From Candidatus Thorarchaeota archaeon (GTDB lineage Archaea > Asgardarchaeota > Thorarchaeia > Thorarchaeales > Thorarchaeaceae): DNA of 64,000 bases. The stretch's first letter is position 1; every line of letters starts with the position of its first letter. The stretch lies in assembly GCA_011364905.1 (NCBI GenBank), contig RDNZ01000001.1:54025-118024 (forward strand), given 5' to 3'. Position numbers and translations under genes: made by a program. Below are positions 6,497 to 58,605 of this stretch, one piece after another. Below the pieces are notes generated by a model. That model was not told the DNA's origin, made no database searches, and was given only the letters and a program-made list of their open reading frames with translations.

Positions 6497-9400
6497 TCTT
6501 CCATCCCTCCAATCTCTTTTAGCAATGCATCTATTTCAGCCTTAGACAGGTTTCGGGCTTGTTCTATCATGAGATCAGCCTCTGTTTCTTCAATGCCCAT
6601 TTTCAATAGACGCTCTTTCAAGTGAAGTAGTTCATCTTCTGAAAGACGCTCCTCAGCAACTTCAGCAGGGACTCCTTCCTCAGCAACCATCTCAGCTTCC
6701 GCAAGTTCTCTCGCCCGACGTGCACGCTCCTGTTTGAGAACCTCATTGATGAATCCAGCTCTCTCACTTGGCCGCATCTTGTCAAGGTCTTGACGTAGAG
6801 TATCAATGTCATCAGGAGTCAAACCGACAACAGTGGCAAGCTGATCTAGAAGCAGTTCGACATCCATTACTGTGACATCAACTGTTGACAGCGCCACATC
6901 TTCCTCTGTCTTCTGGATTCTAATTGGCTTCAAATCATCATTCATCATTGCGAGAAGCATTTGGCGTCTCTGAGGAACATCAGCAGGTTTCGGTATTTTG
7001 CCTTTTGACAGAGACCCTATCATTCTCCTAATGATTCGTAGCAGCTTTGGCACAGATAACACTCTGAAGTATAGTGCGCCTAAGGCAGCGAATAATACAA
7101 GAAGCATTGTGCCATTTCGGAACCATGCGACAAGTGCCTCTTGCTCAGGTGAGAAGCGAGTATAAACGTCAAGATTGACCTCTCCATCTGCATAGTTAAC
7201 CCTGCTTAGAATGATTTTCAAGCTGTAGAGGGCTAACACGGGAGCACGAAATGCGATTGCATATGTTCCATTGTGGTAGTCGATATCAAGTTCTTCCACA
7301 TGAACCAAATTTGCTGTTTGCACATTGTTGCTTGATCGGATTGTAATATCAGCATCCGTGATTGGTAAAGAGTGATCACTGTCGAGATATGTGACATTTA
7401 CGAAGAAGACACGACCGACATAGATAAATTCGGGCAAAGCAGAAGATACTAGCTCCGTCGCAATCCTGCGTATTTTCAAGGAAACATCAATCTCTCCTCT
7501 CGAGTAGTTTCCTCGAGATATGAAAATCCTGATTGTATAATTCTCGTCGCGATATTGTAGTGTTTGACCTAGATTCGCCTCCGTTGGACCGAAGACGTAT
7601 GATCCGTTATTCAAATTGGTTAATTGAACGGCACCAAACTCCCAATATGCAGTAGCAAGACCGTCAGCTATCCAGTTTGCATGAAGGTCATCCCAATAAC
7701 CAAATGTCATCGAGTAATCATCACCTACAGCAAACTCTGCTTCCGTTTTTCCGGTTAGCACGGTCCGAATTGGATTGACAAGCAGTTTCACCAATCCTGA
7801 AGCAAACCGAAAGTTCTCCTTTCGGAAGGAGATGGCTATGTTATGGGGAACAGTTCCTGCCTGAACAAGAGAAGTGTTAACCGTAAGTGAGTATGTACCA
7901 TTGCCATAATCGAATAGCGAACCCTTGAACTGCTCTAATGTGTAGTTAGTAATCGCACCCGGTATTCCCTCGTCAGCATGGATATCATGGAAGACAAGAA
8001 CAAATGTGACTTCCTCCCCATAATATCCACTAAGAGTGGCGTCAGTCACAATAACAATATCAGTATCGACAACTTCAACATTCAAAGTGAATTGGATTGA
8101 TGAAGGCCTATAACCGTCCTTGTCACTCGAGATTATAACAGTCCATTCTTGGACACTAAGATCTGTGGTGTCAATAAGAGCACTGTAATACCCAGGCGTA
8201 CCTAATTCGGTTAAATTCCCGACAAGCGGCCCTACACCATATGAGAGACGGGCACCGAGAACAGGTGTGTTTAGATCTGTATTATTCAGATAAACAGTGA
8301 TATTGGCAATATCACGGAAGTTCACAGTAACGACAAAATCTGAAACAGCTACAAGACTAGTGGAAAGCTCAGTGATTTCAATTGTAAGTTGCATTGATAC
8401 ACTCTTGTAGTTGTCCGAGCTAGCTTGAATGAGAATCTGATGGGTACCTACAGAGGCTCCTGTAACAATAAAGTCCACAACGTATTTTCCATCCGATGCA
8501 GACCACGGAATCTGTCCAGAACCTCCAACCCAACTATAGGTGACCTGACCATTCGTAATTGGTGAGCTGTCAGAGTATATGAGATAATCCACTTGGAGAT
8601 GGACACTCAATCCGTTGACGGTCGAAAGAGGATTGATCGATCCGGCAATTTTTGATGCAATCTTGCCAATTCGAATTTGGAAATCTCTTTGCCTGCTCTC
8701 ATAATTGAGGAGGACGGATCTCACTGTGACTGTGTGTTCACCAGCGACTATCTGCCAAGATTGCACGGTAACATTGTATATACCAGATCCAATATGAGTC
8801 ATGTCGACTGTTATAGTTGAAATAGTCAGATTGACATATGCGCCAACAATGGGAGCTCCAGTTCTAGCATCTGTAACATTGGCTTGGAAATTAATAGAGT
8901 CGCCCCAGGAGGGACTAGTAGGATTAAAGTCTAGCTCAATCTGAACTGGTACAGCTGAAAGGAGAATATCCGCGAGAATTGTATGATTTTGGTGCAAATA
9001 CTTTGAGGCACTTACTGAGAATGAATACAAACCAGCATCCATTCCAGATGTTTGAATCGTCATTTCATAGACGCCGGTGTCAATTTCATGAATTGTTGCT
9101 ATTGTTGGGTAAGTAGCGTTCCAATCACTCAAAACCGTCGCGCCTGGAATACCAACTCCAAATTCAATTGCAGTGTAGGTGATGTTGGCGTGGATTACAT
9201 CTCCCAAGTAGTATGTTACACCTTGAGGCAGGGTGAAGCTAAGAGTCGTTGATACAGAATTAACAACCGCTGAAAAGCTTAGATTTGTTACATTTGTGTA
9301 ATATGGAGAACCATACCAAGTCATATTGGCTGTGAAGAAATACCTGCCCAAACCAGACAATGTTGTGGTGTCTACCAGAATCTGATAAGTGCCATCACCA

Positions 9401-12400
9401 TTGTCAATGATCCAATGCGTGAAACTTGTGGAATTTGCTGACTCTAATGAAACATCTGCCCCGGGGATTCCATTCCCGGTGAGATAGTCCTTGAAGTCAA
9501 GCAAGGCGCTGATATTGAAAAAGTAATACGCTGGTGGAGTTGATAGGACTGAGGCTTGAGTATACCGAGTGGAAATTGTGACTTGAGTGGTTGTCGTGGA
9601 ATTCTCATAATATGGCGTCATGTCGCCCCAGTGGAATTGAATAGTAATTGGGTACGCATCTTCTAGCTCTGAGGATAGAAGTGTAGAATTGAAGGATATC
9701 AAATAGAATCCATCTTGTCCAGTGAGTGTATACTGAGAGTCGAGGATTACTGTGCCTCCTCCATGTGTGATGGTAAGAACAGATTTTGTCAGAGATATTC
9801 TAGTGCTATTCACATCATCCATAACGCTAATCTGGAATTCTACATTGCTCAGGAACGGAGTCGTTAAAGGCGAACGGGTCACCGACAGCGTTGCGTATCG
9901 TCTCACCACATCTATTTGGACATTCGTTATCCTACTCTGATAATATGGTGCGCCTGTTTTGCTTGCTGAGATTGCAATGGTATATTCACCAAAGTTTCCT
10001 AAGGCAAGTGTTGAAATCCTGATGCGATAGTCGCCACCTGTTAGTGAATCAACCCAGTAGTTGACTCCGAGCTGAAGTGTAGCGTTGGAACAGGTCGCAG
10101 TAATGGTTGCGCCATCTATACCCGCGAGTGTGCTATCGTCAAAATAGGACACAAACACTTCAGCTTCCTCCAAGTAGACTGCAAGAGAGGGGACTTCGCT
10201 AGTTAGTTGAGTCCTTCTTTGGATAAGCGTTAGATAGAAGAAGTCAGTGGCATCAAAACAGAAGTTTGTGCCTGTGTAAGACATCGATGCATTGACCGTA
10301 TAGGTTGCCAGTGATGGAAATGCGCTTGTATCAAGAGTCACTGTGAAAGTGCCATCTCCATTGTTTACAACGTTATAGTATCCTAGTAGAGACGCATCTA
10401 GTGTCAAGCTTCCAGTGTTCAACAAGGACTGATCGTCAAGGTCTCTGTAAGTAAAGACGATAACCAAATCATTACCATATTGAATTGAGGTGTATGGTCC
10501 ATGTTCAAGATTCGTGTATCTACTCCGCACGGTCAGTGATATCGGAATGCTGGTTCGGTTCTGGTAGAATGGGGTACCAGTCCACATCACATCGAGATGA
10601 AGTGTGAAGGTTCCAACGTTGCTCCACCATGTTGTATCAAGCTCCAATACATACTCTTGACTACCCGGTAGATAGATAGCGCTAAGAACAAGTCCGGTCT
10701 CCTGAACCTGATAATTCAATTGAGGATCATCGGAAATCGGCAGGCCTGTTAGAACATCGATGTAGGAGAAAGTCAGATTGACATTATCTCCATATGGAGT
10801 GGTTGGGAGAGGTTCCCATAGAATGCTTGTTTGCCTGTATCTGGTATTCACTGCTACGGTCAGTGATCTGTTTTCGTAGAGCGGAAGCTGTCCAGATGTC
10901 CAATTTGCAGAGATTCGAATCTCACATGTAATGATACCGCTAAGATAATTTGTATCGAAGGTTATTTGATATTCTCCATTACCTAGTTCGGAGATCACCA
11001 TCAGGTCTTGGGTTAATGTCTGACCTGGTGTAAGGACTTCAATATAGAAGTGCACATTCAAGGGATAGTCTCCAGTACTATTGGTTATCCCAGTACTGTT
11101 ACTAATGTCCCAATATACAACCGAGAAGGTGACATTTTCCCCATAAGGAGTGGCAACTGGATTCGTTCCTATGTACAAATCAGATGGACTTCCAGCGATT
11201 CTTGCGCTTACCTGCAGCACTTTGTTATCGTGCGCTGGTTGTGGACCAGTCCAATTTGCATAGAGTGTTATATCCTTCCTGCCAATCGACCCCCATTGAT
11301 CAGCTCTTATTCTAACTATGTACTGACCAGCTATTGAACCATTTACAACTGTATACTCAAGTGACGGTACACCCACGGCTTCAGCATAAATCAAGACATT
11401 GCTGCTGACAATTCCTTGTGATGTTGTAATGTCATAATACATCACGTAAATCGTAATTTGACCAGTGTAAGGCGTTGGTTCGATGGGATTATCTAAGGAG
11501 AAAGAAGTCAAATGAGTGATTATATCAATACCAATGCTGAAGGTATGGTTCTGGTAGGCAAAGCGGTTAACATCGAAGACCACGGAGTAGTCCTGAATAG
11601 GATCAGATTCAGCTGAGTAAAACGTTATGCTGTATTCACCTGGTGCACTGGCTGCCACAATGTAACTTGACCAGTTGCATGAGATGGAACTCTCTGCACC
11701 CGATATCGGAAGATCGTGATCAGTATCCCAGTATGTCAGTGTAATGGTTTCTTCATAACCAACTGGGAGAGATATGCCGCTCTGGGAAACTGAAACTGAA
11801 GTGAAGATCTGTCGCACTTCAACAAATAGAAGAACCTGAGAAGTAGTGTAGTAATTCTGCTCTGCTGTGACGACAACCGCATAGGTGCCCAAGTTGGAAT
11901 TTCCTGTAGTAATCGTAAGAGTGTAGTTACCAGGTGCTCCAGCTACTGGATTGACGGTGTAGGATGAATCTGTCCAATTACATGTTAGAACTGCACCACC
12001 AATACCCGCGTCTTCCGAGTCTGCGTAGAAGAGTTCGAGAACTGCATTGTCTCCTCGGGGCACTTGTACCCCAGGAGCACTACTGGATTGTAATGTTGTT
12101 TCTTCAACGACATTTATCACAAAATACGTTTGGAGTGAATCGTAGTACTGCTTACTCCATGAAATGCCTATCACATATCGACCAGGGAGTCCCAAATCTG
12201 CTGTGTTGACAACAACACTGTACTCACCAGTACCCATATCATTCAGGATGCGTGTTCCAGTAGTCCAGTTGTATGTTGCAGAACCTCCTGGAAGGAGAAG
12301 ACCATTATTGGAGTCATTTACACCAATCTGAAGAAGCATATCTTGACCATAGGTGAGATTTCGTTCCCAGGAAGTAACAGATTGCCTGGGATAGGCAATA

Positions 12401-14187
12401 TACATGTCAGATCCATGTTCAATTGTAAACGACCGTGAATACAAACCGATGTTCTCAACGGGACTACCTGAAACAGAATCATTCACGAATGCTTGTACCG
12501 ACCATTGCCCTACTTCAGCTGTGAAGGCATCAAGATTCAAGTCGGTCGTTTCAGCAATCCCTGAAGACACCGTTGCTGCCACTGTGTCCCATAGGTTGCC
12601 CATTGTGTCATAGACGTTGAATGTAACAGTCGCACCGTTGTAAACGGTATCAAGATAGGCTTGGAAGCGAACATTGTCATTAGCCCGATACGTGTTTGTA
12701 GTGACCCAACTGGCACCACTTGACATTCTCAAGTCTTGAATTATGTTCGCTGAATGCCCTGTTATTTTCCAGAATCCATTCTGATAGGTCCCGACAACTC
12801 CATCATAAACTGAAATGTTCAAGCTTGTTGCAGTGGTGGACCAATATGGGAAATTGACGGATGGGAATCGAGGTTCTGATACAGTATCAATAACCAGAGT
12901 ATCAGATTTACTTGCATTGAAGTAGAATAACTGGGAATAACCGTTTGGGACAGCAACGTAATAATATGTAATCCAGTTTACTTGGCTGGCATTACTGGTC
13001 GTGAAGTGAGTGCCCAGACTCTGAACATCAGCTTCATAGAGTGAGGACTGGTCAACTTTTCTTGCATATACCGTCATGTCGACAGAAAAAGTGACACGAA
13101 TATCATCATTAGGGTTGGGATTTACTGGAGTCGGAGTCCAGCTGAATGTTGCATTCACTGCACTTCCACTCCATGGGATAGCTGCAGATTCCTGAACTGT
13201 GCCTAAACTCCATGTAGCGCCATTGGACACGGGAATGCCATTCATTTCCAAGTTTACTTGACTTGGTTGCACTCGAGTCTTTATGAAGATTCTAACATTG
13301 TCCATCCTCACCTCTGGGTAGAGCTGAGGATTGCTTCCGAATGATCTTGTAGTCCTCATTCCAATTTGCAGAATGAAGTTGGATGATGTGATGAGTGAAG
13401 GGTCAGCCTCGATTAAGCCTGTGGAGTACCAAGTTGTTTGTGCAAGAACATCACTGAACTGCATGTCCCACAGATGGTTTGATACATTATCATTGTGGCC
13501 AATTTGAGCGTATAGCTCCCAAAAACCAATGGGCAGACCGCCCCAATTATCATCAACCCAGTAATCAAGTGAAACGCCAACCCATGTGACTTCACCACGA
13601 TTGGTATTGATTGTTTGCTCCGCATACTGTCTATCGCCAAGGTCATGGCGGTAGTAGCCTCCATCCAACACACCGTCCATCTGAAAGCTGACATACCCAC
13701 CAGTTATTGTAGAAGACATAGGATTTGTGTGAGTTGGCAAATCATCATAGCCAGTTGTCCAGTCCGCTGCTGAACCAAAACCGGGGTTGGTAAGATAGGT
13801 TCGATTCTCCTGAAGGTCACTCACACTGATGGATGTGTCAGTACCTTCCCAAAGAGGACCGAGAGGAACAGAAACAGTCTGAGTTGTGGTAGTATTTGTA
13901 GGATAATAAGCAAGGTCCAGGTTTGAGTGGTGATCCGTCCTTTGCCCATATTCCGACACTACCATAGGAGACCCTTCGCCTGAAACTGTTGTTGGGACCT
14001 CAGAAAGAGAATAAGAATTCAGGACCTCATCTGGCCCAACTTCAACGGTCTGACCATTGCCTAGATCTACCTGTTTTGCTCCAGGCGCAGAGGAAGTTGG
14101 GGTGGCATTATGAGTCATAGGGGCTCCAAGACTCACAAGTAGAGACGCCATCACGAGAAATAGAAACAGGGTCCTTTTGACTTTCAT
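6493..14187 (-). CDS. Giant 2564-aa surface protein: signal peptide, Laminin_G_3-like lectin domain, then more than 20 Ig-like/beta-sandwich repeats with many N-x-S/T sequons, a single C-terminal TM helix, and a roughly 200-aa acidic coiled-coil cytoplasmic tail.
   Basis: Single uninterrupted 7.7-kb ORF. The N-terminus MKVKRTLFLFLVMASLLVSLGAP is a signal peptide. The motif RMDNVRIFIKT matches the Laminin_G_3 C-terminal consensus. Repeats of about 100-120 aa carry recurring Y/W/G/D positions. The TM helix is MLLVLFAALGALYFRVL (about nt 7050-7115), followed by a tail ERARRARELAEAEMVAEE...KEIGGMEE. An SD GGAGG sits 8 nt upstream of the ATG at 14196..14200. Confidence 0.85.
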   Translation of the reverse strand: MKVKRTLFLFLVMASLLVSLGAPMTHNATPTSSAPGAKQVDLGNGQTVEVGPDEVLNSYSLSEVPTTVSGEGSPMVVSEYGQRTDHHSNLDLAYYPTNTTTTQTVSVPLGPLWEGTDTSISVSDLQENRTYLTNPGFGSAADWTTGYDDLPTHTNPMSSTITGGYVSFQMDGVLDGGYYRHDLGDRQYAEQTINTNRGEVTWVGVSLDYWVDDNWGGLPIGFWELYAQIGHNDNVSNHLWDMQFSDVLAQTTWYSTGLIEADPSLITSSNFILQIGMRTTRSFGSNPQLYPEVRMDNVRIFIKTRVQPSQVNLEMNGIPVSNGATWSLGTVQESAAIPWSGSAVNATFSWTPTPVNPNPNDDIRVTFSVDMTVYARKVDQSSLYEADVQSLGTHFTTSNASQVNWITYYYVAVPNGYSQLFYFNASKSDTLVIDTVSEPRFPSVNFPYWSTTATSLNISVYDGVVGTYQNGFWKITGHSANIIQDLRMSSGASWVTTNTYRANDNVRFQAYLDTVYNGATVTFNVYDTMGNLWDTVAATVSSGIAETTDLNLDAFTAEVGQWSVQAFVNDSVSGSPVENIGLYSRSFTIEHGSDMYIAYPRQSVTSWERNLTYGQDMLLQIGVNDSNNGLLLPGGSATYNWTTGTRILNDMGTGEYSVVVNTADLGLPGRYVIGISWSKQYYDSLQTYFVINVVEETTLQSSSAPGVQVPRGDNAVLELFYADSEDAGIGGAVLTCNWTDSSYTVNPVAGAPGNYTLTITTGNSNLGTYAVVVTAEQNYYTTSQVLLFVEVRQIFTSVSVSQSGISLPVGYEETITLTYWDTDHDLPISGAESSISCNWSSYIVAASAPGEYSITFYSAESDPIQDYSVVFDVNRFAYQNHTFSIGIDIITHLTSFSLDNPIEPTPYTGQITIYVMYYDITTSQGIVSSNVLIYAEAVGVPSLEYTVVNGSIAGQYIVRIRADQWGSIGRKDITLYANWTGPQPAHDNKVLQVSARIAGSPSDLYIGTNPVATPYGENVTFSVVYWDISNSTGITNSTGDYPLNVHFYIEVLTPGQTLTQDLMVISELGNGEYQITFDTNYLSGIITCEIRISANWTSGQLPLYENRSLTVAVNTRYRQTSILWEPLPTTPYGDNVNLTFSYIDVLTGLPISDDPQLNYQVQETGLVLSAIYLPGSQEYVLELDTTWWSNVGTFTLHLDVMWTGTPFYQNRTSIPISLTVRSRYTNLEHGPYTSIQYGNDLVIVFTYRDLDDQSLLNTGSLTLDASLLGYYNVVNNGDGTFTVTLDTSAFPSLATYTVNASMSYTGTNFCFDATDFFYLTLIQRRTQLTSEVPSLAVYLEEAEVFVSYFDDSTLAGIDGATITATCSNATLQLGVNYWVDSLTGGDYRIRISTLALGNFGEYTIAISASKTGAPYYQSRITNVQIDVVRRYATLSVTRSPLTTPFLSNVEFQISVMDDVNSTRISLTKSVLTITHGGGTVILDSQYTLTGQDGFYLISFNSTLLSSELEDAYPITIQFHWGDMTPYYENSTTTTQVTISTRYTQASVLSTPPAYYFFNISALLDFKDYLTGNGIPGADVSLESANSTSFTHWIIDNGDGTYQILVDTTTLSGLGRYFFTANMTWYGSPYYTNVTNLSFSAVVNSVSTTLSFTLPQGVTYYLGDVIHANITYTAIEFGVGIPGATVLSDWNATYPTIATIHEIDTGVYEMTIQTSGMDAGLYSFSVSASKYLHQNHTILADILLSAVPVQIELDFNPTSPSWGDSINFQANVTDARTGAPIVGAYVNLTISTITVDMTHIGSGIYNVTVQSWQIVAGEHTVTVRSVLLNYESRQRDFQIRIGKIASKIAGSINPLSTVNGLSVHLQVDYLIYSDSSPITNGQVTYSWVGGSGQIPWSASDGKYVVDFIVTGASVGTHQILIQASSDNYKSVSMQLTIEITELSTSLVAVSDFVVTVNFRDIANITVYLNNTDLNTPVLGARLSYGVGPLVGNLTELGTPGYYSALIDTTDLSVQEWTVIISSDKDGYRPSSIQFTLNVEVVDTDIVIVTDATLSGYYGEEVTFVLVFHDIHADEGIPGAITNYTLEQFKGSLFDYGNGTYSLTVNTSLVQAGTVPHNIAISFRKENFRFASGLVKLLVNPIRTVLTGKTEAEFAVGDDYSMTFGYWDDLHANWIADGLATAYWEFGAVQLTNLNNGSYVFGPTEANLGQTLQYRDENYTIRIFISRGNYSRGEIDVSLKIRRIATELVSSALPEFIYVGRVFFVNVTYLDSDHSLPITDADITIRSSNNVQTANLVHVEELDIDYHNGTYAIAFRAPVLALYSLKIILSRVNYADGEVNLDVYTRFSPEQEALVAWFRNGTMLLVLFAALGALYFRVLSVPKLLRIIRRMIGSLSKGKIPKPADVPQRRQMLLAMMNDDLKPIRIQKTEEDVALSTVDVTVMDVELLLDQLATVVGLTPDDIDTLRQDLDKMRPSERAGFINEVLKQERARRARELAEAEMVAEEGVPAEVAEERLSEDELLHLKERLLKMGIEETEADLMIEQARNLSKAEIDALLKEIGGMEE

Positions 14188-14425: not shown

Positions 14426-16669
14426 TTATTCTCTCTTTCGAATTACAATGACACCGACTATTACAATAACGGCTGCAATACTTCCTGCAACGATTATCGG
14501 TGTCAGAATATACGGAGGTGTATTTGTGGTAGTGCTAGTTGGTGTTGATGAAGCCGCACTAAGATGTGTCAAAACTCCTCCTTCTGCTCTATTCATCCCC
14601 CAATCCCAAGCAACCACCCATATAGTAAGATTTGAGGTGTGCTCCAAGAAGGGAACTGACACTGACCAATTATATCCGTTATAAGCCATTGGAAAGCTAC
14701 GAACAACACCATCATCTACCTGAACATAGAGTGTGACATTCTCCAATCCTGCAAGATTTTCGCTAATCATCGCCCAGTAGGTGAAAGGGCCAGTCCAAAA
14801 GTCGCTTGGATTAGTACCTCGACCATATATCGACGGAGGTATGTCATCAATTGACGAAAACATCATTCTTCGAGTCCAATCTCGAGCTTTTACCAAAGCA
14901 CTGTATGCTGAATGCCAGTCCATTTCATTGTAGGAATTTCTTGCAGATTCAAATGAAGCAAGAGCAGCAGATTCCGCGGCATAGGTTACGCCTCTCTCAT
15001 CGGATCGAAGATTGGATTGCTCCTCAAGAAAGTTTGACCATAGAAGAGCTTCCATCTGGTCCAAATAGGTCCCCTGAACCCAGTTCTTCTCAAAAGTGGA
15101 GGTACCGTTGTGTTCAGCAAAGTATCCCATAGGTCCGTAATAGAAGTCACTTGAATAGTGCTCATGTTGCCAAGAGTGCGCAAATCCGATTGCATGCATG
15201 GTCTCATGAAGTTGAGTGGCTGATATTCCATCCTTGGGAGTCACACCATCCGGGCGATAATAACGTTCCCAAGATTTCCAGATGACTGTCTGTCCTCCTC
15301 CACCCAGTCCGGTGTACGCTCTTCCATAGACATGCATTTCCATTTGCTTCTTTATGAAGACAACTCCAAACACATTGATGTTGTCGTCATTAACCACATA
15401 TGCGGGTCTCATTCCACTGTAGATAGCATTAAACATGGACCCACCATCAACAATTGTTGTTCCATCTAAGTTATCTGCGGCGTATGTCCAGAACAGGCTG
15501 TTCCAAGAAGGTTCTTCATCGATGTCTAGATATTGGACATCAACCTCCCATTGAATGAAGGGATAGAGTTCCTCAAGATGCGCCTTTTGCATCTCAGCGT
15601 TGGTCACCCATTCGAGGCTATTGACAGAGGTCCCATCAGCTACATCCATGCAAAACACCAGCACCTTCAGTCTACCAACATCAACATACTTTGCAGGCTG
15701 ATGCTGATATGGGAAAAGTAGTTGGCTGATAGGGTCCCAGATGCACTCTCTCAAGTAAACATTGAGTGCATCTACATCTGCAGGTATGTCTAAGTTGAGA
15801 GATCCCACTTTGTCCTCTAAATCTTGAGTCCAGAAATCGTAAGACGTATTGATTTCTTCGCTCCACCAAACCTTGCACCATTTCAAGTACCACTGATGAG
15901 CACTAGGGTCCACTACATACAGATTATAGCGTCCACCGAAGAACGGATAGTCCATCGTGACATTCGGATTCAGAGCGTTGTCCCACTCCAATCTAAACCA
16001 GTCTTGATTCTGTCCCGTATCAGGATCAAGGGGGTGGTAGTTGTACCAATGTTCCAGACTGTGATCCGCGCTGTCAAACTCCGAGAAATTAACAAGATAA
16101 AGAGTGTACCCAAGATCAGGCGGACTCGTGTATGGATTCTCTTCTAGCCAATCCTCCACTGCATAGCCATCAATGGCACGACCTGCTCGAGGATAGAATA
16201 TTCGTTGTGGTTCGTCGAGGTTGTCCTTCTGATATAGTAGTGCGCTCTCATCAAGGCCTGTCCCTGTTTCGCTTCCATTTATGGAATTGTCAAGCATGAC
16301 TTGGCGAAGTTCGTCGTTGTATGCAGCATCTGCATAGACGATTTGATACTCGATATTATAGGTGATTTGAGCTGCTTCTGTAGAAAAGTTCCTGATTGTT
16401 GGTAAATCCTGTAATAGTAACGGTTCATCAATTAGAGAAGGATCATAACCCACTACGATGATATTAGCTGTCCAGTTTCTCTCAATTGGTTGAGGCCCCT
16501 GACTAAGAGTAGCTTGCTTTACTGGCTGTCTGTGATTATCTTGCACACCAAAAGGAGTGGCAATCACAAGCACTAAAGCAATACCTAGGACAAGAGCACG
16601 ACGCATAGTGTTCCCTGCCTTCTTCACCATATTAACAAACTGGTTCATGTAACCGCAACCAAACCACAT
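14426..16669 (-). CDS. Secreted metzincin-type zinc metalloprotease with a Ser/Thr-rich stalk and C-terminal TM anchor. The true start may be 16630 (MVKKAG...) or 16606 (MRRALV...).
   Basis: HETMHAIGFAH fits the HExxHxxGxxH metzincin zinc-binding motif. The N-terminal hydrophobic stretch ALVLGIALVLVIATPFG is a signal peptide. A stalk SAASSTPTSTTTNTPPY is followed by the TM helix IIVAGSIAAVIVIVGVIVI plus RKRE at the extreme C-terminus. Confidence 0.7.
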   Translation of the reverse strand: MWFGCGYMNQFVNMVKKAGNTMRRALVLGIALVLVIATPFGVQDNHRQPVKQATLSQGPQPIERNWTANIIVVGYDPSLIDEPLLLQDLPTIRNFSTEAAQITYNIEYQIVYADAAYNDELRQVMLDNSINGSETGTGLDESALLYQKDNLDEPQRIFYPRAGRAIDGYAVEDWLEENPYTSPPDLGYTLYLVNFSEFDSADHSLEHWYNYHPLDPDTGQNQDWFRLEWDNALNPNVTMDYPFFGGRYNLYVVDPSAHQWYLKWCKVWWSEEINTSYDFWTQDLEDKVGSLNLDIPADVDALNVYLRECIWDPISQLLFPYQHQPAKYVDVGRLKVLVFCMDVADGTSVNSLEWVTNAEMQKAHLEELYPFIQWEVDVQYLDIDEEPSWNSLFWTYAADNLDGTTIVDGGSMFNAIYSGMRPAYVVNDDNINVFGVVFIKKQMEMHVYGRAYTGLGGGGQTVIWKSWERYYRPDGVTPKDGISATQLHETMHAIGFAHSWQHEHYSSDFYYGPMGYFAEHNGTSTFEKNWVQGTYLDQMEALLWSNFLEEQSNLRSDERGVTYAAESAALASFESARNSYNEMDWHSAYSALVKARDWTRRMMFSSIDDIPPSIYGRGTNPSDFWTGPFTYWAMISENLAGLENVTLYVQVDDGVVRSFPMAYNGYNWSVSVPFLEHTSNLTIWVVAWDWGMNRAEGGVLTHLSAASSTPTSTTTNTPPYILTPIIVAGSIAAVIVIVGVIVIRKRE

Positions 16670-18368: not shown

Positions 18369-18977
18369 CTAGACCTTCACGACCCAATTCACTAGTTCAG
18401 AAGAAAGAGGATTTTCCTCCACAAATAGTTCGCGATATGAAGAATTACTTAACATAATCCATACATTTTGCAATTCAAAATCAAAACCAATGATTTTGAA
18501 TGCTGTTTCGAATGCAGAAGGACGAAACGATATGTAGGCCAAAAACAATGAGCCCAAAAAAATCGCCGCATATGAGTAGATCCAAGGACTGATTGGCCTT
18601 CCAGCCCAGACATCCGCGCCAGCATAGATTAACGCGAATATGGATATGCAAACCATGAGAGATGCAACGAGAATGGATAGAGTCCGTGCCCTCATTTCAG
18701 CGTTATCTGAAATTGTATGGTCTGCACAAACATCAACTAGAAAACTCTTGGTTTCTGCGTTTGCCAGCTGCTGTTCTTTTGTTGCAAGAAACTTTGCATC
18801 GGAGGCTGGATGTAGCCAAATCTTCTTCCTTGGATGCGTCGATATACGTGTGCATGTAGTAGCGGGAGCGCCACAGACAGGACAGGTTTTGGGGAATCGT
18901 ATTCTACTGATTTTCGCTCTCACAATTGGTTCATCAAAATAAACCCTATGTCTTATTGTGCTCAAAAGCTGCATCAC
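18369..18977 (-). CDS. Hypothetical membrane protein with an N-terminal zinc-ribbon (CPVCG...C...CADH) and two to three TM helices.
   Basis: Cys pairs CPVCGAPATTC and VDVCADH precede hydrophobic helices LSILVASLMVCISIFALIYAG and IYSYAAIFLGSLFLAYISF. It is convergent with the upstream gene, with a 1-nt gap. Confidence 0.45.
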   Translation of the reverse strand: MMQLLSTIRHRVYFDEPIVRAKISRIRFPKTCPVCGAPATTCTRISTHPRKKIWLHPASDAKFLATKEQQLANAETKSFLVDVCADHTISDNAEMRARTLSILVASLMVCISIFALIYAGADVWAGRPISPWIYSYAAIFLGSLFLAYISFRPSAFETAFKIIGFDFELQNVWIMLSNSSYRELFVEENPLSSELVNWVVKV

Positions 18978-19035
18978 CAGACCAGAGAACTAGATGTAGT
19001 AGAGTAATTGAGTGTATCGAAGCAGGTAAGTCCTT

Positions 19036-20181: not shown

Positions 20182-20227
20182 TGATTGATTTTAGCGTCTA
20201 CAGATAAAACTGAGTCCCTAGATGAAC

Positions 20228-23200
20228 TTACTCTTCTGGTGGTAAGGGCGAAGGTAGCTTTGTTTCAGCAGCTATCAGAAAGTCTCCGTCAACTGCTTCA
20301 AGCACCATTTGATGCGCTCTTCTTTCAGTGTATCCAAGAACGCTCGTTGCCTTGATAATTGCGTCAACGGAAACTCCATGGTGAATGTCCATACTATCGA
20401 GCGCAGAAGATACTGGACTAAGATCTTTGGGGAGGTTCCTCTTTACTCCAACGTATCTCTTCATCAACCGCCCATCGAAGTAACTTACGAAGATTGAATC
20501 AAAAGTGTCAGAGAGTGTTGGAGATCGGACCATCTGACGGATTGCATCATCCTGGTGGTCATAAAGTCCGCCGACCTCTCTACTGAATGTTTCAAGTTGT
20601 ACCTTTTGTCTACTAGAGGCAGGTTCTACAGTGATAATGGCGCAAATGAGTGACTCAGTTTGCACTGCTGTGACCACTTCTGTGATAGGAATTGCTGTCC
20701 ACATGGGCTCATCAATTGAGAATTCTGATCGGAATTGAGAAATTGCTGTTATTAGTGAGCTAAGTATGGATTCTTGAAATGCTCCCTTGAGGATATTTGA
20801 GTACACAGGCAGTCCAATTGCACGATGAATGACAAGCAGACCAATTAGATTCTTTGCATCATCAATGCGTCCCTCAAGAGCCAGAAGTTCGAGGTTACGT
20901 CTTGTCATGGTAGTCATATAGAAACGACGGCTGAATGCTATTGCGACTACGGAAATCACGACAATAAACGCCCCAATGAAACCTGCTCTTAGTGTAACCA
21001 CGTAAAGCGACTCCGTCCCCGGGATTCGAATGGTGACATTTACACTATTGCTTTCAAAATAAGGCATGGCAACTTCAATAACGACCAAATATTCTCCAGA
21101 GCCAAAGCCCGTAGAGTTGAAGTCCGCCTCCCACCAGTTTCTAGCATAGTTAGGACTAAACTGAACAATTCCCGAAGTCCAATTACCAGTTACTTGTGCG
21201 TCGCTAAGGATTGAATTGCCGTTATCTTGGTCATAGAGAGAGATGGCAAGCGTGAATTCATCACCAGATTTGATCTCGCGGATTGGCGTCTGAGCTATAA
21301 CGGTGAATTTGTGCAACAAACTAAATTCCGCTTTACCATATCCCACTTCAGTGCCATTGTGCCAGAAGGCACCGACAATCCATTCTCCAACAGTTGAATT
21401 CACAGGGCCAAAAACATCTCCCTGTGTGACTACCGTTGAGTCATTGAAATTATGCAGAACCTCGCTCGCCCATAGGTCACTAGTGGGGAGATACCAACTC
21501 ACCTCAACATTCGTGGCATTTCCAAGTGAATCGTTAGTTGCACCAAGACTAGCAAGACACCTAATTCTGTCTTCATTGTGAAAGATGGATTCGTCAGCCC
21601 ATGTGAGGTCCGACTTGTTTTGAACTTGAGTTGTTAGTTTGTTTACGTAATTTGGTCCGTGCAGAATTATTGTCCACCAACCTGCGGAATTCGCTAAACC
21701 GGAGGCGATGGTTAGTTTCGAATCCTCTACAGACACACTAGGTGTGACATCCTGGCCGAGAGGATTCAAGACCTGCGGATCATTCCAGTCAGATGGGATA
21801 TGCGCGATTATTCCTTTGTCAGCTGCTTCAGGATATGATTGGATATACGTGTATAGAGAAAACTCTGCGTGCTCACCCATTTCAATGACATATGACACTC
21901 CATCATCTTCCAGGTTCATGGAACTCATTGAGTAACTGAAACGGGTCATAATACTGACTTTTGATGAAAATTCAAAGGAAACTGTCGTGTTCGATGAAAA
22001 GGTGAATGGGATAGATGCTTTCTCCCAGAAGGAATAATTCAACAGAATCTCCCCTTGACTAACTGTTCCATATACAGGTAGTGTGCCTAAAGGTGAACAG
22101 CTTACTGTCAGGTCTACTTGTTGCGGACTCGGAGCATTCAGAGCCGTTAGGGAGATATCATCAACAAGAAATGTAAGGAATTGACCATTAGCTGAATCGC
22201 CATCCAAATCAGCGTCGTTTTCATCAATCTGAATGTACGATGAAGGTGTGTCCACTTTCAAGACAACGCGAATTTCAAATTGCGGCGGAGCTTCAGGAAT
22301 TTCCACTTCTAGCGGGCCAGTGGAAAACCAAACTCCTCTCTGTGTCATATTCGTGGGATCTATTGTCCAGTTCCATAGCATTGATGTTCCATTGAGAATC
22401 TCAAAGCCAAATTCAAAAATGTCAGAGTAGTTCAAACCAATTGGTCCTCGCTGATATAGATAGTCCATTGAGAACTCGAATTCTTCTTCCCCCTGACTAT
22501 TGTTGACCATCTGGTACCAATAAATCCGAGTTCCGTCGTAGTGTCGATATCCAACGCCCACTACTTCATAACCCTCGTTCTCAATGGATAGGTATTTGCT
22601 ACCAGTGTCGACATAGGAGGTTCGCTGTCTTCCAGGTGTGTAGAGAATTTCTCGCTGGGCCAACCATCCATCAGCGTAAAATGCTCCATTCCCGGTCCAA
22701 TCAATATTCGCACCAGGATTTCCAGTTTCAAAGGTCCCGTTCAACGCGTAGAGACAATTGAGGTCTCTAATGTCAACCTCGACCTGTTCTGCACTCCAGG
22801 AGTCGTCCCCTGCACAAACGTCATAGCTGAAGGACACTGCTCCAACTGGAACAAGATCTGCACCTCCTGACGAATCGGACAGAGATCCTTCAAACTTGTA
22901 ATAGTGAGAAAGACCTGGTTCATTCCCAGCTAGAGTTTCCAAGTAATCACTCCTAATATCCTCTAAGGGCCTTTCAACTGTATAGTATCTAAAATCATCC
23001 ACATGGCCATCGACCATTGTATCAGGTCGAGCAGCAGAATTCATCAGGTCATTTTCAGACAGAAAACCTACGACTGATCCGACCCATGAAGTTGTAAAGG
23101 CATCCTCCAAAGGTTGAGTGTCTTCATCACCCCAATAGATTGCAATCTGGTTTGATGTGTCATCCCAGGTGATGGCTAAGAAATACCATCGACCAAGTAC

Positions 23201-23794
23201 CCAGTCATTCTTATTCCCCACGATGGTTGTGTCCCCGCCCCAGTCTAATGTAAGGCGATTGTCAACAGACCAACGAGTTTCAAAGTCATAATCCTGCCCC
23301 CAGAACCGTCCAGTGGCTAGGGAACCATCCCATTTTATCCAAAGAGAAATAGTTCCTTGCGGTGATCCGAAGTCGGTTTGGCCACTAACACCGACTAAGA
23401 AGTAACCTCCTGAACAATCGGCAGAGTACCTGTTACCTTGTGAGCCTACAGGAGAGAATGCTTCAGAGCTTGGTTGAGGTGCCGTGTCAGTACGAGCGAT
23501 AGTGTATGGTTGAATCCCAGCAGCTGAACCGAAATGTTCGATAGGAACAGGGTTGAGTATACCAGTTCTTGGTTCCGGGCTTTCAGAAAGGCCATGATAT
23601 ATTCCCTTGGAAAGTCGTATAGGATCTGAGAAGTTGGTTCTTGAAGTCGTTGTGCTTGGAGCTGCTAACGGTGCCCACCCTAACATGCTACAGAGAAATA
23701 GTATCATGACTAGATGGGTCCTTTTCAACCACTGGCCTCCGATGAGAAGCTGGTAACTAGGCCGGAGTTTATGCCACAAAACGCAACTTCCCAA
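20228..23794 (-). CDS. Receptor-like surface protein: signal peptide, Laminin_G_3/ConA-like lectin domain, beta-sandwich domains, one TM helix, and a roughly 300-aa cytoplasmic domain that may be roadblock/LC7-like. The probable true start is 23707 (MILFLCSMLGWAPLAAPS).
   Basis: The LamG-like block is GTISLWIKWDGS...WYFLAITWDDTSNQIAIYWGDEDTQP...VDDFRYYTVERPLEDI. The TM helix is GFIGAFIVVISVVAIAFS followed by RRFY. The cytoplasmic segment NLIGLLVIHRAIGLPVYSNILKG...LITAISQF is loosely roadblock-like. The ORF is 1188 aa. Confidence 0.75.
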   Translation of the reverse strand: MGSCVLWHKLRPSYQLLIGGQWLKRTHLVMILFLCSMLGWAPLAAPSTTTSRTNFSDPIRLSKGIYHGLSESPEPRTGILNPVPIEHFGSAAGIQPYTIARTDTAPQPSSEAFSPVGSQGNRYSADCSGGYFLVGVSGQTDFGSPQGTISLWIKWDGSLATGRFWGQDYDFETRWSVDNRLTLDWGGDTTIVGNKNDWVLGRWYFLAITWDDTSNQIAIYWGDEDTQPLEDAFTTSWVGSVVGFLSENDLMNSAARPDTMVDGHVDDFRYYTVERPLEDIRSDYLETLAGNEPGLSHYYKFEGSLSDSSGGADLVPVGAVSFSYDVCAGDDSWSAEQVEVDIRDLNCLYALNGTFETGNPGANIDWTGNGAFYADGWLAQREILYTPGRQRTSYVDTGSKYLSIENEGYEVVGVGYRHYDGTRIYWYQMVNNSQGEEEFEFSMDYLYQRGPIGLNYSDIFEFGFEILNGTSMLWNWTIDPTNMTQRGVWFSTGPLEVEIPEAPPQFEIRVVLKVDTPSSYIQIDENDADLDGDSANGQFLTFLVDDISLTALNAPSPQQVDLTVSCSPLGTLPVYGTVSQGEILLNYSFWEKASIPFTFSSNTTVSFEFSSKVSIMTRFSYSMSSMNLEDDGVSYVIEMGEHAEFSLYTYIQSYPEAADKGIIAHIPSDWNDPQVLNPLGQDVTPSVSVEDSKLTIASGLANSAGWWTIILHGPNYVNKLTTQVQNKSDLTWADESIFHNEDRIRCLASLGATNDSLGNATNVEVSWYLPTSDLWASEVLHNFNDSTVVTQGDVFGPVNSTVGEWIVGAFWHNGTEVGYGKAEFSLLHKFTVIAQTPIREIKSGDEFTLAISLYDQDNGNSILSDAQVTGNWTSGIVQFSPNYARNWWEADFNSTGFGSGEYLVVIEVAMPYFESNSVNVTIRIPGTESLYVVTLRAGFIGAFIVVISVVAIAFSRRFYMTTMTRRNLELLALEGRIDDAKNLIGLLVIHRAIGLPVYSNILKGAFQESILSSLITAISQFRSEFSIDEPMWTAIPITEVVTAVQTESLICAIITVEPASSRQKVQLETFSREVGGLYDHQDDAIRQMVRSPTLSDTFDSIFVSYFDGRLMKRYVGVKRNLPKDLSPVSSALDSMDIHHGVSVDAIIKATSVLGYTERRAHQMVLEAVDGDFLIAAETKLPSPLPPEE

Positions 23795-58523: not shown

Positions 58524-58605
58524 CTTTTGCGCACACTCTAGTGTATTATCAGTAAGTTCAACGCAATAAGGATTCCCAAAGAGTGGAGATTCTGCAATCC
58601 CAGAA

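What the first reader, a model, noticed from the sequence alone, without database searches (positions are those of the whole stretch)
14426..16669. Secreted, membrane-tethered metzincin immediately downstream of the giant-protein pair
HETMHAIGFAH is a textbook HExxHxxGxxH metzincin motif. The protein has a signal peptide, a Thr/Ser-rich stalk and a C-terminal TM anchor, so the catalytic domain is displayed at the cell surface. It sits on the same strand directly upstream of the giant glycoprotein genes and may process or shed them, or scavenge peptides. Cell-surface metzincins are uncommon and poorly characterised in archaea.
Basis: partly seen in the sequence, partly recalled or inferred. Interest (0 to 1): 0.55.

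Follow-up and report, generated by a model that had tools for sequence, protein, structure and literature searches.

The report
Membrane-anchored Asgard metzincin resembling PIG-S
This gene encodes a cell-surface zinc protease of a previously undescribed family found across Asgard archaea, and its closest structural relative is PIG-S, a catalytically dead subunit of the eukaryotic GPI-anchoring enzyme, so it may show what PIG-S evolved from.

Summary
ORF 14426-16669 (-) is real, though its likely start is M22 at 16606. HETMHAIGFAH is invariant in 40 orthologs. A PMGY Met-turn candidate, an N-terminal hydrophobic segment and a C-terminal TM are conserved.

No Pfam, NCBIfam or PDB sequence family accepts the protein. 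Distant relatives give only sub-threshold hits, all to metzincin families. It therefore belongs to a new metzincin-class family. All named archaeal members are Asgard (Thor, Njord, Heimdall, Hodarchaeales).

Architecture: anchor, alpha/beta N-lobe, metzincin domain, helical bundle, beta-sandwich, TM.

The best solved-structure match is human PIG-S (Foldseek E 4e-12), a published pseudo-metzincin with the same two-TM topology. Next is the metzincin O-glycopeptidase Amuc_1438. Region-restricted profile comparison with PIG-S is weak but specific (P 0.0006-0.003; 0/200 shuffled nulls reach it). It aligns the HExxHxxG helix with a relic xQLxxLLGLP. The N-lobe shows no PIG-S signal.

In Thorarchaeia the gene usually sits directly upstream of two paralogous ~2,560-aa surface proteins (5 of 7 loci, plus one locus next to an unrelated giant). 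Heimdall/Hod relatives lack this linkage.

Most likely function: a membrane-proximal zinc endopeptidase acting on surface proteins. The PIG-S ancestry reading is plausible (~0.4) but unproven.

The parts
14426..16606 (-). Probable true CDS (726 aa, start M22) of the membrane-anchored metzincin-like protein. The longest ORF extends to 16669.
   Evidence: M22 is >=90% conserved in the 40-sequence alignment, and 8 of the 14 N-termini displayed begin there, with a basic pair followed by a hydrophobic stretch.
16538..16606 (-). N-terminal hydrophobic segment (aa 22-44, MRRALVLGIALVLVIATPFGVQD): a signal peptide or an uncleaved signal anchor.
   Evidence: Hydropathy. Conserved in 36/45 superfamily members. 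Cleavage status not determined.
15695..16501 (-). N-lobe (aa 57-325), an alpha/beta domain of unknown function. It carries the most conserved residues of the superfamily (G163, N194, D254 invariant; D199, H207, W260 >=91%).
   Evidence: AF2 pLDDT mostly >85. Conservation. No significant PDB fold match on its own.
15098..15694 (-). Metzincin-type catalytic domain (aa 326-524): beta-strands 331-340, 373-382, 431-466, then active-site helix 485-493.
15176..15208 (-). Zinc-binding motif HETMHAIGFAH (aa 488-498).
   Evidence: Invariant in 40 orthologs. 86-97% conserved in the 45-sequence superfamily alignment. Translation verified.
15122..15133 (-). Met-turn candidate PMGY (aa 513-516), preceded by the conserved D508-F509.
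   Evidence: M514 is 93% and Y516 88% conserved in the superfamily. It lies in the loop between the third His and the long helix 525-552. 3D geometry was not checked.
14840..15097 (-). Post-catalytic three-helix bundle (aa 525-610).
   Evidence: AF2 helices 525-552, 560-580 and 585-607, pLDDT >90. This region carries most of the hhalign signal to the PIG-S helical region 421-502.
14561..14839 (-). Beta-sandwich domain (aa 611-703), equivalent to DUF7743 in orthologs. Absent from the short Heimdall/Hod forms and from PIG-S.
   Evidence: strands 613-703. (P0045 matches PF24893, E 1.7e-7). FN3/Ig/CBM fold hits..
14429..14560 (-). Ser/Thr/Pro linker (aa 704-719), C-terminal TM helix (aa ~720-743) and basic tail RKRE.
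   Evidence: TM plus basic tail in 40/45 superfamily members; the linker is not conserved.
6493..14187 (-). Giant surface protein 1 (2,564 aa): N-terminal signal-like segment, 54 N-glycosylation sequons, TM at aa 2351-2380, ~185-aa cytoplasmic tail. Candidate substrate or partner.
   Evidence: Orthologs directly follow the metzincin gene in L001, L005, L008 and L010.
1..6496 (-). Giant surface protein 2 (partial, >2,165 aa), a paralog of giant 1 (31% identity over ~2,100 aa). Its ATG overlaps giant 1's stop by 4 nt.

Best explanation
The gene encodes an active, zinc-dependent endopeptidase of the metzincin class. It belongs to a previously undescribed, essentially Asgard-wide family. The protein is inserted in the cytoplasmic membrane with its whole ~650-aa ectodomain outside. 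It is held by a C-terminal TM helix and possibly also by an uncleaved N-terminal anchor, so the active site sits close to the membrane surface. His488, His492 and His498 would bind zinc, Glu489 would act as the general base, and Met514 would form the Met-turn beneath the metal. Shown: motif invariance, conserved Met, conserved topology, metzincin-type fold matches, Asgard distribution, and recurrent adjacency to two giant type-I surface proteins in Thorarchaeia. Inferred: the enzyme cleaves membrane-proximal regions of cell-surface (glyco)proteins, meaning maturation or shedding in the manner of ADAM or MT-MMP sheddases. The co-encoded giant paralogs are the most likely substrates in Thorarchaeia. 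The strongly conserved N-lobe probably supplies substrate or partner binding.
For: The ORF and motif are real and unique in the window. H488/E489/H492/G495/H498 are invariant in 40 orthologs, and P513-M514-G515 >=90% with Y516 invariant. The extended signature HExxHxxGxxH...DF...(V)MGY(Y/F) is kept in relatives down to ~20% identity. Of 45 diverse members, 31 weakly match Reprolysin_5, 31 Peptidase_M10, 26 Reprolysin_3, 21 M66 and 14 'Met-zincin' DUF4953; only metzincin-type peptidase families recur. The family profile hits only metzincins among PDB peptidases (ADAM8, serralysin, MMPs, fragilysin, archaemetzincin, pappalysin). The AF2 model is confident (pLDDT 81.9, pTM 0.78), with strands, active-site helix, loop and long C-helix in metzincin order. 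The best PDB fold hits are PIG-S (a pseudo-metzincin per PMC9098846) and the experimentally validated metzincin Amuc_1438 (PMC9513282). Topology is conserved: C-terminal TM plus basic tail in 40/45, both ends hydrophobic in 31/45. Orthologous giants directly follow the gene in the window, L001, L005, L008 and L010. In L003 an unrelated 2,058-aa giant is adjacent and the orthologous giant lies ~9.6 kb away. In L005 the M-giant-giant block persists although the CoA-ligase/LRR/LamG genes are gone.
Against: There is no biochemical evidence. pLDDT around the active site is only 57-76, and zinc-site or Met-turn geometry could not be inspected because no coordinates were available. Classical metzincins are not among the top 50 Foldseek hits, and TM-scores to PIG-S and Amuc_1438 are low (0.41 and <=0.23). 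The giant linkage is absent in L009 and in Njord, Heimdall and Hod relatives. All loci that show it are Thorarchaeia-type, so it could be inherited synteny. A 238-bp spacer separates the gene from giant 1, so co-transcription is unproven. Paralogs that lost the zinc ligands are retained, and the most conserved residues lie in the N-lobe. The family's core function may therefore not be proteolysis.
Confidence: 0.6

Rival explanations
1. It is an archaeal counterpart of PIG-S. It would be a two-TM membrane scaffold whose main job is to bind and position partner proteins or substrates in a surface-protein processing or anchoring complex. Proteolysis would be secondary or regulatory. Eukaryotic PIG-S would then be a zinc-site-less descendant of this Asgard family.
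For: PIG-S is the top PDB fold hit in three entries (E 3.6e-12 to 3.8e-10, ~645 aligned columns). PIG-S residues 222-398 are published as AmzA/metzincin-like without the His triad or Met, and PIG-S has two TMHs (PMC9098846). Region-restricted hhalign gives P 0.0006 (global) and 0.003 (local), with null reversed and cross-domain controls and 0/200 block-shuffled nulls reaching the real score. The Gly-anchored relic motif in PIG-S is x[Q/H/D/E]LxxLLGLP against HExGHxLGLPH. Domain order is the same, and the short Heimdall/Hod forms lack the beta-sandwich as PIG-S does. The family includes Hodarchaeales and Heimdallarchaeota. Pseudo-protease paralogs show that the zinc site is repeatedly lost. PMC12872458 reports Asgard ancestry of the GPI transamidase complex at pathway level.
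Against: Full-length profile-profile probability is only 0.2-2%. PF10510 is never hit by any of 45 members. The N-lobe alone retrieves neither PIG-S nor anything significant, and the N-lobe profiles show no signal (P 0.56). TM-scores are <0.5. I could not test whether other metzincin families match PIG-S equally well. No PIGK, GPAA1, PIGT or PIGU-like genes lie near any homolog. The intact, invariant zinc site argues that this particular protein is catalytic.
Confidence: 0.2
2. It is a nutritional ecto-peptidase that degrades environmental proteins or peptides at the cell surface for uptake. Its position next to the giant genes is inherited synteny without functional meaning.
For: The linkage breaks in L009 and is absent outside Thorarchaeia. 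The Njordarchaeial relative lies beside amino-acid and Opp-type peptide ABC transporters. The window also encodes S9 and M24 peptidases. Upstream genes (CoA ligase, LRR, LamG, PALP, PPDK) are syntenic as well, showing general gene-order conservation.
Against: A double or very short membrane tether (linker of 5-16 aa) keeps the active site at the membrane, which is unusual for a bulk scavenging protease. In L005 the M-giant-giant block survives loss of the other syntenic genes. Catalytically dead paralogs are maintained, which does not fit a purely digestive role for the family.
Confidence: 0.15
3. It is a glycoprotein-specific peptidase of the OgpA/Amuc_1438 type, which recognises a glycan on Ser/Thr or Asn and cuts next to it. 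It would act on the heavily glycosylated giants.
For: Amuc_1438 is the second-best fold hit (E 1.6e-8 to 3e-7, ~430 columns). PF12044, the only Pfam family touching the Amuc_1438 motif (PMC9513282), weakly matches 12/45 members. The giants carry 49-54 N-glycosylation sequons.
Against: TM-scores to Amuc_1438 are very low (0.12-0.23). The glycan-binding residues of OgpA/Amuc_1438 were not examined. There is no sequence-level relationship beyond the zinc motif.
Confidence: 0.05

Closest known systems
PIG-S / Gpi17 (PF10510), subunit of the eukaryotic GPI transamidase
   Same: It is the best solved-structure match. Both have an N-terminal and a C-terminal TM flanking a large extracytoplasmic or luminal domain. 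The domain order is N-lobe, metzincin-like domain, helical region. A weak co-linear profile signal runs over the metzincin helix and helical bundle. PIG-S keeps a relic LGLP and a polar residue at the catalytic Glu position.
   Different: PIG-S lacks all three zinc-binding histidines and the Met-turn (PMC9098846); this protein keeps them invariantly. There is no Pfam or full-length profile match. The N-lobes are not detectably similar. This protein has an extra beta-sandwich. No GPI-transamidase partner genes are nearby. PIG-S is eukaryotic and ER-resident.
Amuc_1438 / OgpA O-glycopeptidases of Akkermansia (unclassified metzincins)
   Same: Both have a metzincin zinc site with a Met-turn, embedded in a larger catalytic module with extra helical and beta-sandwich parts. 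Amuc_1438 is the second-best fold match (PMC9513282). Neither is captured by an established peptidase family.
   Different: The Akkermansia enzymes are bacterial, secreted and soluble, with a CBM. Superposition scores are low. There is no evidence here for glycan recognition.
Archaemetzincin AmzA (MEROPS M54, PF07998)
   Same: It is an archaeal metzincin with short spacing between the third His and the Met. It is the published structural reference for the PIG-S metzincin-like domain. M54 hits are sub-threshold in 7/45 members, and the PDB profile hit has E 0.18.
   Different: AmzA is a small (~160 aa) cytosolic protein with the Cys4 signature HEXXHXXGXXHCX4CXMX17CXXC (PMC3427221). Those cysteines are absent here, where the motif is followed by SWQHEHYSSDFYYGPMGY.
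Membrane-anchored metzincin sheddases of eukaryotes (ADAMs, MT-MMPs)
   Same: This is a functional analogy: a metzincin catalytic domain tethered by a C-terminal TM next to the membrane, acting on type-I surface proteins. ADAM8 is the best peptidase hit of the family profile, including the strand preceding the active-site helix.
   Different: The match is not significant (E 0.013, motif region only). There is no pro-domain cysteine switch and no disintegrin or hemopexin domains. Reprolysin and M10 Pfam thresholds are not met.

Membership tests
Metzincin clan (MA(M)) | Extended zinc-binding motif HExxHxxGxxH/D | tested here: met
   HETMHAIGFAH at aa 488-498. Invariant in 40 orthologs and 86-97% per position in 45 diverse members.
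Metzincin clan (MA(M)) | Conserved methionine (Met-turn) downstream of the third zinc ligand | tested here: inconclusive
   M514 (PMGY) is 93% conserved and co-occurs with the zinc motif. It lies in the loop before the C-terminal helix. Its position under the metal could not be checked because no coordinates were available.
Metzincin clan (MA(M)) | Catalytic-domain fold: twisted beta-sheet plus active-site helix ending at the Gly, then a C-terminal helix | tested here: inconclusive
Metzincin clan (MA(M)) | Zinc-dependent peptidase activity | not testable with these tools
   Requires biochemistry.
Established metzincin families (astacin M12A, reprolysin/ADAM M12B, matrixin M10A, serralysin M10B, leishmanolysin M8, pappalysin M43, archaemetzincin M54, M66) | Match to the family HMM at the curated threshold | tested here: not met
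   The window protein has 0 Pfam or NCBIfam hits at E<=1-10. In 45 relatives all hits are below the gathering score and confined to ~20-50 aa around the motif. PDB profile hits have E>=0.009.
Archaemetzincin (M54) | Four-cysteine signature HEXXHXXGXXHCX4CXMX17CXXC | tested here: not met
   The sequence after H498 is SWQHEHYSSDFYYGPMGY. The protein's only cysteines are C5, C265, C309 and C340. The signature is taken from PMC3427221.
PIG-S / Gpi17 (PF10510) | Sequence membership (Pfam HMM or profile-profile) | tested here: not met
   PF10510 is not hit by any of 45 members at E<=10. Full-length hhalign probability is 0.1-2%. Only the region-restricted comparison gives P 0.0006-0.003, with 0/200 nulls.
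PIG-S / Gpi17 (PF10510) | Overall fold of the luminal domain | tested here: inconclusive
   It is the top PDB hit, E 3.6e-12, probability 1.0, ~645 columns, but TMt is 0.41 and rmsd 18 A. The N-lobe alone does not retrieve PIG-S.
PIG-S / Gpi17 (PF10510) | Two TM helices (N- and C-terminal) flanking the luminal domain | tested here: inconclusive
   Hydrophobic segments are at aa 22-44 and 720-743, and at both ends in 31/45 relatives. Human PIG-S has them at 16-38 and 517-544. Whether the N-terminal segment is cleaved is unknown.
PIG-S / Gpi17 (PF10510) | Absence of a metzincin active site (pseudo-protease) | tested here: not met
   The active-site motif is intact and invariant here. Only the Thorarchaeota paralogs P0129, P0130, P0134, P0143 and P0145 have lost it.
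PIG-S / Gpi17 (PF10510) | Assembly with PIGK, PIGT, PIGU and GPAA1 | not tested
   No such genes lie within 10 kb of any of 14 loci examined. Genome-wide presence in Asgard genomes was not searched.
OgpA/Amuc_1438-type O-glycopeptidases | Metzincin centre plus a glycan (GalNAc)-recognition pocket | not tested
   There is only a fold hit (E 1.6e-8, TM<=0.23) and weak PF12044 hits in 12/45 members. Pocket residues were not compared.

The most novel reading that the evidence does not exclude
This Asgard-wide family of two-anchor membrane metzincins is the prokaryotic stock from which the eukaryotic GPI-transamidase subunit PIG-S descends. PIG-S would be a zinc-site-less derivative that kept the fold, the topology, the helical bundle and a relic x-Q-L-x-x-L-L-G-L-P of the HExxHxxGLPH helix. 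This parallels the pseudo-protease paralogs already present in Thorarchaeota. It would give PIG-S, a subunit of unclear function, an origin and a testable ancestral activity: membrane-proximal recognition or cleavage of surface-protein stalks.
Probability: 0.4. Interest if true: 0.85.

Novelty: new variant of a known kind. Interest (0 to 1): 0.62.

Why it matters
Metzincins are well known, but this family has no Pfam, NCBIfam or MEROPS-type assignment and no literature that I could find. It carries a large conserved N-lobe of unknown function and is present across Asgard archaea, including the Hodarchaeales closest to eukaryotes. If it is an active membrane-proximal protease for giant type-I surface proteins, it would be an archaeal analogue of ectodomain shedding. 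If the PIG-S relationship holds, it would explain why a GPI-transamidase subunit has a dead metzincin fold. It would also add a specific, experimentally tractable protein to the list of Asgard-derived eukaryotic machinery, and it would suggest what PIG-S does: bind substrate stalks at a fixed height above the membrane.

Tried and rejected
1. Library assignment. Pfam, NCBIfam and PDB sequence searches of the protein returned nothing.

3. Whole-ectodomain homology to PIG-S. The N-lobe (aa 57-325) was modelled alone (pLDDT 83). It gave no significant PDB hit, only GTPase/septin-like alpha/beta matches at probability <0.4, and did not retrieve PIG-S or Amuc_1438. The N-lobe versus PIG-S 40-221 profiles were null. 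Any PIG-S similarity is therefore limited to the metzincin-like and helical part.

4. Full-length hhalign against human PIG-S, vertebrate PIG-S and vertebrate plus fungal PIG-S gave probability 0.1-2%.

5. The equal-length 746-aa ORF at 58606-60846 (-) was tested as a possible paralog and is unrelated.

6. LamG/Ig giants as obligatory neighbours. The LamG protein is not adjacent, and the giant linkage fails in L009 and outside Thorarchaeia.

7. The Ser/Thr stalk as a family feature is not conserved.

8. Literature. There are no papers on Asgard plus GPI transamidase at subunit level, on PIG-S plus metzincin plus archaea, or on Thorarchaeota surface metalloproteases. PMC12872458 does not name PIG-S.

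9. No GPI-transamidase-like partner genes were found in the window.
Full report
OBSERVATION

The 747-aa ORF at 14426..16669 on the minus strand is real. HETMHAIGFAH occupies aa 488-498 (window 15176-15208, verified). It is the only HExxHxxGxxH in all six frames of the window.

Hydropathy analysis shows two hydrophobic segments, at aa 21-44 and 717-746. The second is followed by RKRE. A 16-residue Ser/Thr/Pro linker (aa 704-719) precedes the C-terminal TM.

The first 21 codons of the ORF are probably not translated. M22 (MRRALVL...) is at least 90% conserved in the 40-sequence alignment, and most of the ortholog N-termini displayed begin there. The likely CDS is therefore 14426..16606.

On the minus strand the gene is followed, after a 238-bp spacer, by a 2,564-aa gene (6493..14187). 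A second giant gene starts at ATG 6496, overlaps the first giant's stop by 4 nt and runs off the window; more than 2,165 aa of it are visible. The finding's title says 'downstream', which is wrong in the transcriptional sense. Its text says 'upstream', which is right.

The LamG protein (20228..23794) is separated from the gene by an LRR protein, a small Zn-ribbon membrane protein and an opposite-strand ADP-forming acyl-CoA ligase.

WHAT IT IS

No curated library recognises the protein. It has zero Pfam families at E<=1, zero NCBIfam families at E<=10 and zero PDB chains at E<=10.

It is nevertheless strongly conserved. A search of 5.8 billion clusters gave 190 hits. All named hits are Asgard MAG proteins, mostly Thorarchaeota, and all are labelled 'hypothetical'. 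An exhaustive phmmer search of 1.84 billion representatives gave 135 relatives, 96 of them at E<=1e-10. The shared module is aa ~60-540.

In 40 orthologs with 48-87% identity to the query, H488, E489, H492, G495 and H498 are invariant. P513-M514-G515 is at least 90% conserved and Y516 is invariant. Relatives down to ~20% identity keep HExxHxxGxxH followed, 10-20 residues later, by DF...(V)MGY(Y/F). In a 45-sequence superfamily alignment, M514 is 93% conserved. The Met-turn candidate therefore co-evolves with the zinc site.

Scanning the 45 members individually gave only sub-threshold hits, but consistently to metzincin families: Reprolysin_5 (31 members), Peptidase_M10 (31), Reprolysin_3 (26), M66 (21), 'Met-zincin' DUF4953 (14), and also M43, M54 and astacin. 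The family profile searched against all PDB sequences found only metzincins among peptidases (ADAM8, serralysin, MMPs, fragilysin, archaemetzincin, pappalysin). All had E>=0.009 and matched only around the motif.

The conclusion is metzincin class, but a member of no established family.

STRUCTURE

The AlphaFold2 model built from the 40-sequence alignment is confident overall (pLDDT 81.9, pTM 0.78). Confidence drops to 57-76 around aa 471-520. The architecture is:
- an N-terminal helix;
- an alpha/beta N-lobe (aa 57-325);
- a domain whose strands (331-340, 373-382, 431-466) precede a short helix 485-493 carrying HExxH, then a loop with H498, D508-F509 and P513-M514-G515-Y516, then a long helix 525-552;
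- two further helices (560-580, 585-607);
- a beta-sandwich (613-703), which matches DUF7743 in orthologs;
- the C-terminal TM helix.

I could not inspect metal-site geometry because coordinates are not exposed.

Foldseek against 350,542 PDB chains gave only two kinds of significant non-Ig hits:
- subunit S (PIG-S) of the human GPI transamidase in three entries (E 3.6e-12 to 3.8e-10, ~645 aligned columns, TMt 0.41);
- the Akkermansia O-glycopeptidase Amuc_1438 (E 1.6e-8 to 3e-7, TM <=0.23).

Amuc_1438 is an experimentally established metzincin with a Met-turn (PMC9513282). For PIG-S, Xu et al. 2022 (PMC9098846) report three things. Residues 222-398 fold like the metzincin AmzA but lack the His triad and the Met. 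PIG-S has two TM helices. Its function is unclear beyond holding PIGK.

TESTING THE PIG-S LEAD

I recalled the human PIG-S sequence from memory and verified it as matching PDB chain 7wld_S at every aligned position over residues 2-555. I then collected vertebrate and fungal PIG-S/Gpi17 sequences and built a diverse 32-sequence profile, A5.

Negative results:
- Full-length hhalign probabilities are 0.1-2%.
- PF10510 is never hit by any of the 45 members.
- The N-lobe modelled alone (pLDDT 83) retrieves neither PIG-S nor any other significant fold.
- N-lobe profiles show no signal (P 0.56).

Positive results:
- Restricting the comparison to the equivalent regions (family 326-610 against PIG-S 222-516) gives a local alignment of 107 columns with P 0.003. 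It starts at the zinc motif (487-601 to 390-500, which without gaps puts E489 opposite Q392 and G495 opposite G398) and runs through the helical bundle. The global alignment has P 0.0006 and pairs the family's W354 (95% conserved) with PIG-S's invariant W245.
- Reversed-profile and cross-domain controls give P 0.25-0.56.
- None of 200 block-shuffled PIG-S profiles reaches the real local score (28.2 against a null mean of 15-16 and a maximum of 25) or the real global score (20.2 against a null mean of 5-6 and a maximum of 16).
- Anchored on the glycine, PIG-S reads x-[Q17/H7/D5/E3]-L-x-x-L-L-G(30/32)-L-P(19/32), against the family's H-E-x-G-H-x-L-G-L-P-H.
- Topology matches. PIG-S has TMs at 16-38 and 517-544. 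The family has a C-terminal TM plus basic tail in 40/45 members and both ends hydrophobic in 31/45. The shorter Heimdall/Hod forms (~630-660 aa) lack the beta-sandwich, giving the same domain order as PIG-S.

Phyletic distribution and literature:
- Named relatives are from Thor-, Njord-, Heimdall- and Hodarchaeales/Hodarchaeota. One bacterial cluster (NC10/'bacterium') is fused to beta-propeller and PKD domains.
- I found no paper linking PIG-S to an archaeal metzincin family.

I rate specific PIG-S kinship at about 0.4. The signal is real but weak. It is confined to the metzincin-like and helical part. I could not run the key specificity control, which is whether other metzincin families match PIG-S equally well.

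PARALOGS AND THE N-LOBE

Five full-length relatives (P0129, P0130, P0134, P0143, P0145), of which the three that carry source names are Thorarchaeota, have lost the zinc ligands (for example LREVLSILGLNAS), and all five have lost Y516. P0138 has lost the second His. These pseudo-proteases retain the N-lobe residues that are the most conserved in the whole superfamily: G163, N194 and D254 are invariant; D199, H207, W260 and W354 are at least 91% conserved. The N-lobe therefore has an important function of its own, which remains unexplained. P0129 lies directly upstream of a 946-aa FtsX-type permease and an ABC ATPase.

GENOMIC CONTEXT

Giants 1 and 2 are paralogs (31% identity over ~2,100 aa). 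Each has an N-terminal signal-like segment and 49-54 N-glycosylation sequons. Giant 1 has a TM at aa 2351-2380 and a ~185-aa cytoplasmic tail.

Their orthologs directly follow the metzincin gene in L001/L002, L005, L008 and L010. In L003/L004 a different 2,058-aa FG-GAP protein precedes the gene by 24 bp, and the orthologous giant lies ~9.6 kb downstream. In L009 no giant lies within 10 kb. In L005 the M-giant-giant block persists although the CoA-ligase, LRR and LamG genes are missing.

Njord, Heimdall and Hod relatives are not linked to giants. The Njord gene sits next to amino-acid and Opp-type peptide ABC transporters.

The rest of the window is housekeeping: PPDK, PALP enzymes, an epimerase, ThrRS, thiolase, S9 and M24 peptidases, a molybdopterin oxidoreductase, ABC transporter components and a histidine kinase. 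No GPI-transamidase-like genes are present.

MECHANISM

Best-supported reading (confidence ~0.6): this is an active, outward-facing, membrane-tethered zinc metzincin.
- Shown: the invariant catalytic motif, the conserved Met, the conserved topology, the metzincin-type fold relatives, and the recurrent linkage to giant type-I surface proteins in Thorarchaeia.
- Inferred: it cleaves membrane-proximal parts of surface (glyco)proteins, most plausibly the co-encoded giants, for maturation or shedding. This is analogous to ADAM and MT-MMP sheddases. The N-lobe would provide substrate or partner binding.

Rivals:
- a PIG-S-like scaffold in a surface-protein processing complex (0.2);
- a nutritional ecto-peptidase whose gene neighbourhood is mere synteny (0.15);
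- an OgpA-like glycoprotein-specific peptidase (0.05).

NOVELTY AND VERDICT

This is a new, uncharacterised metzincin-class family with a distinctive architecture and an Asgard-wide distribution: a new variant of a known kind.

Interest is 0.62. The most novel reading not excluded is PIG-S ancestry, at probability ~0.4 and interest 0.85 if true.

Noticed in passing
Relatives P0129, P0130, P0134, P0143, P0145 (and P0138); locus L006 10001-16044: Full-length paralogs, of which the three that carry source names are Thorarchaeota, have lost the zinc-binding histidines and Y516 (pseudo-proteases) but keep the N-lobe invariant residues. P0129 sits directly upstream of a 946-aa FtsX-type permease and an ABC ATPase. 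This is reminiscent of FtsEX-controlled degenerate hydrolase regulators in bacteria.
   Followed up: partly
window 15695-16501 (-), aa 57-325: The N-lobe holds the most conserved residues of the whole superfamily: G163, N194 and D254 invariant; D199, H207, W260 and W354 >=91%. They are more conserved than the zinc site. The lobe has no significant fold match in the PDB, so it may carry a second metal or ligand site of unknown function.
   Followed up: partly
window 1-14187 (-): Two tandem paralogous giant genes (2,564 aa and >2,165 aa; 31% identity) have a 4-nt ATGA start/stop overlap. Giant 1 is a type-I membrane protein with a ~185-aa acidic, coiled-coil-like cytoplasmic tail. Pfam gives only faint Ig-like hits. 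Orthologs in other Thorarchaeia are 2,554-2,909 aa, and one carries NHL repeats.
   Followed up: partly
window 18369-23794 (-) and locus L008 2873-8253: A conserved trio lies upstream: a 1,188-aa LamG (Laminin_G_3) type-I membrane protein with a ~230-aa cytoplasmic domain, a 381-aa LRR protein, and a 202-aa Zn-ribbon membrane protein. The trio is syntenic in L008 (49% identity for the LamG protein) but absent in L005.
   Followed up: partly
window 58606-60846 (-): A 746-aa multi-pass membrane protein with no Pfam family. Its ORF overlaps the start of the M24 peptidase ORF (57330-58694) by 89 nt, so one of the two start codons is probably mis-assigned. It is unrelated to the metzincin family.
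   Followed up: yes
locus L011 (Njordarchaeia relative P0158): The distant active relative, which has a Big_7 Ig domain, lies next to amino-acid and Opp-type oligopeptide ABC transporters. This hints at a nutritional role in that lineage.
   Followed up: no
Relatives P0133, P0140, P0148, P0167: Some relatives fuse the N-lobe plus metzincin module to beta-propellers (PQQ/BamB-like, LVIVD, SBBP), PKD, CARDB or dockerin domains instead of a simple TM anchor. The P0167 cluster carries bacterial (NC10) names, suggesting horizontal spread outside Asgard.
   Followed up: no
window 45785-47632 (+) and 57330-58694 (-): The same window encodes an S9 prolyl-oligopeptidase-family protein with PD40 repeats and an M24 (prolidase/Xaa-Pro) peptidase. 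Both fit a peptide-degrading lifestyle.
   Followed up: no
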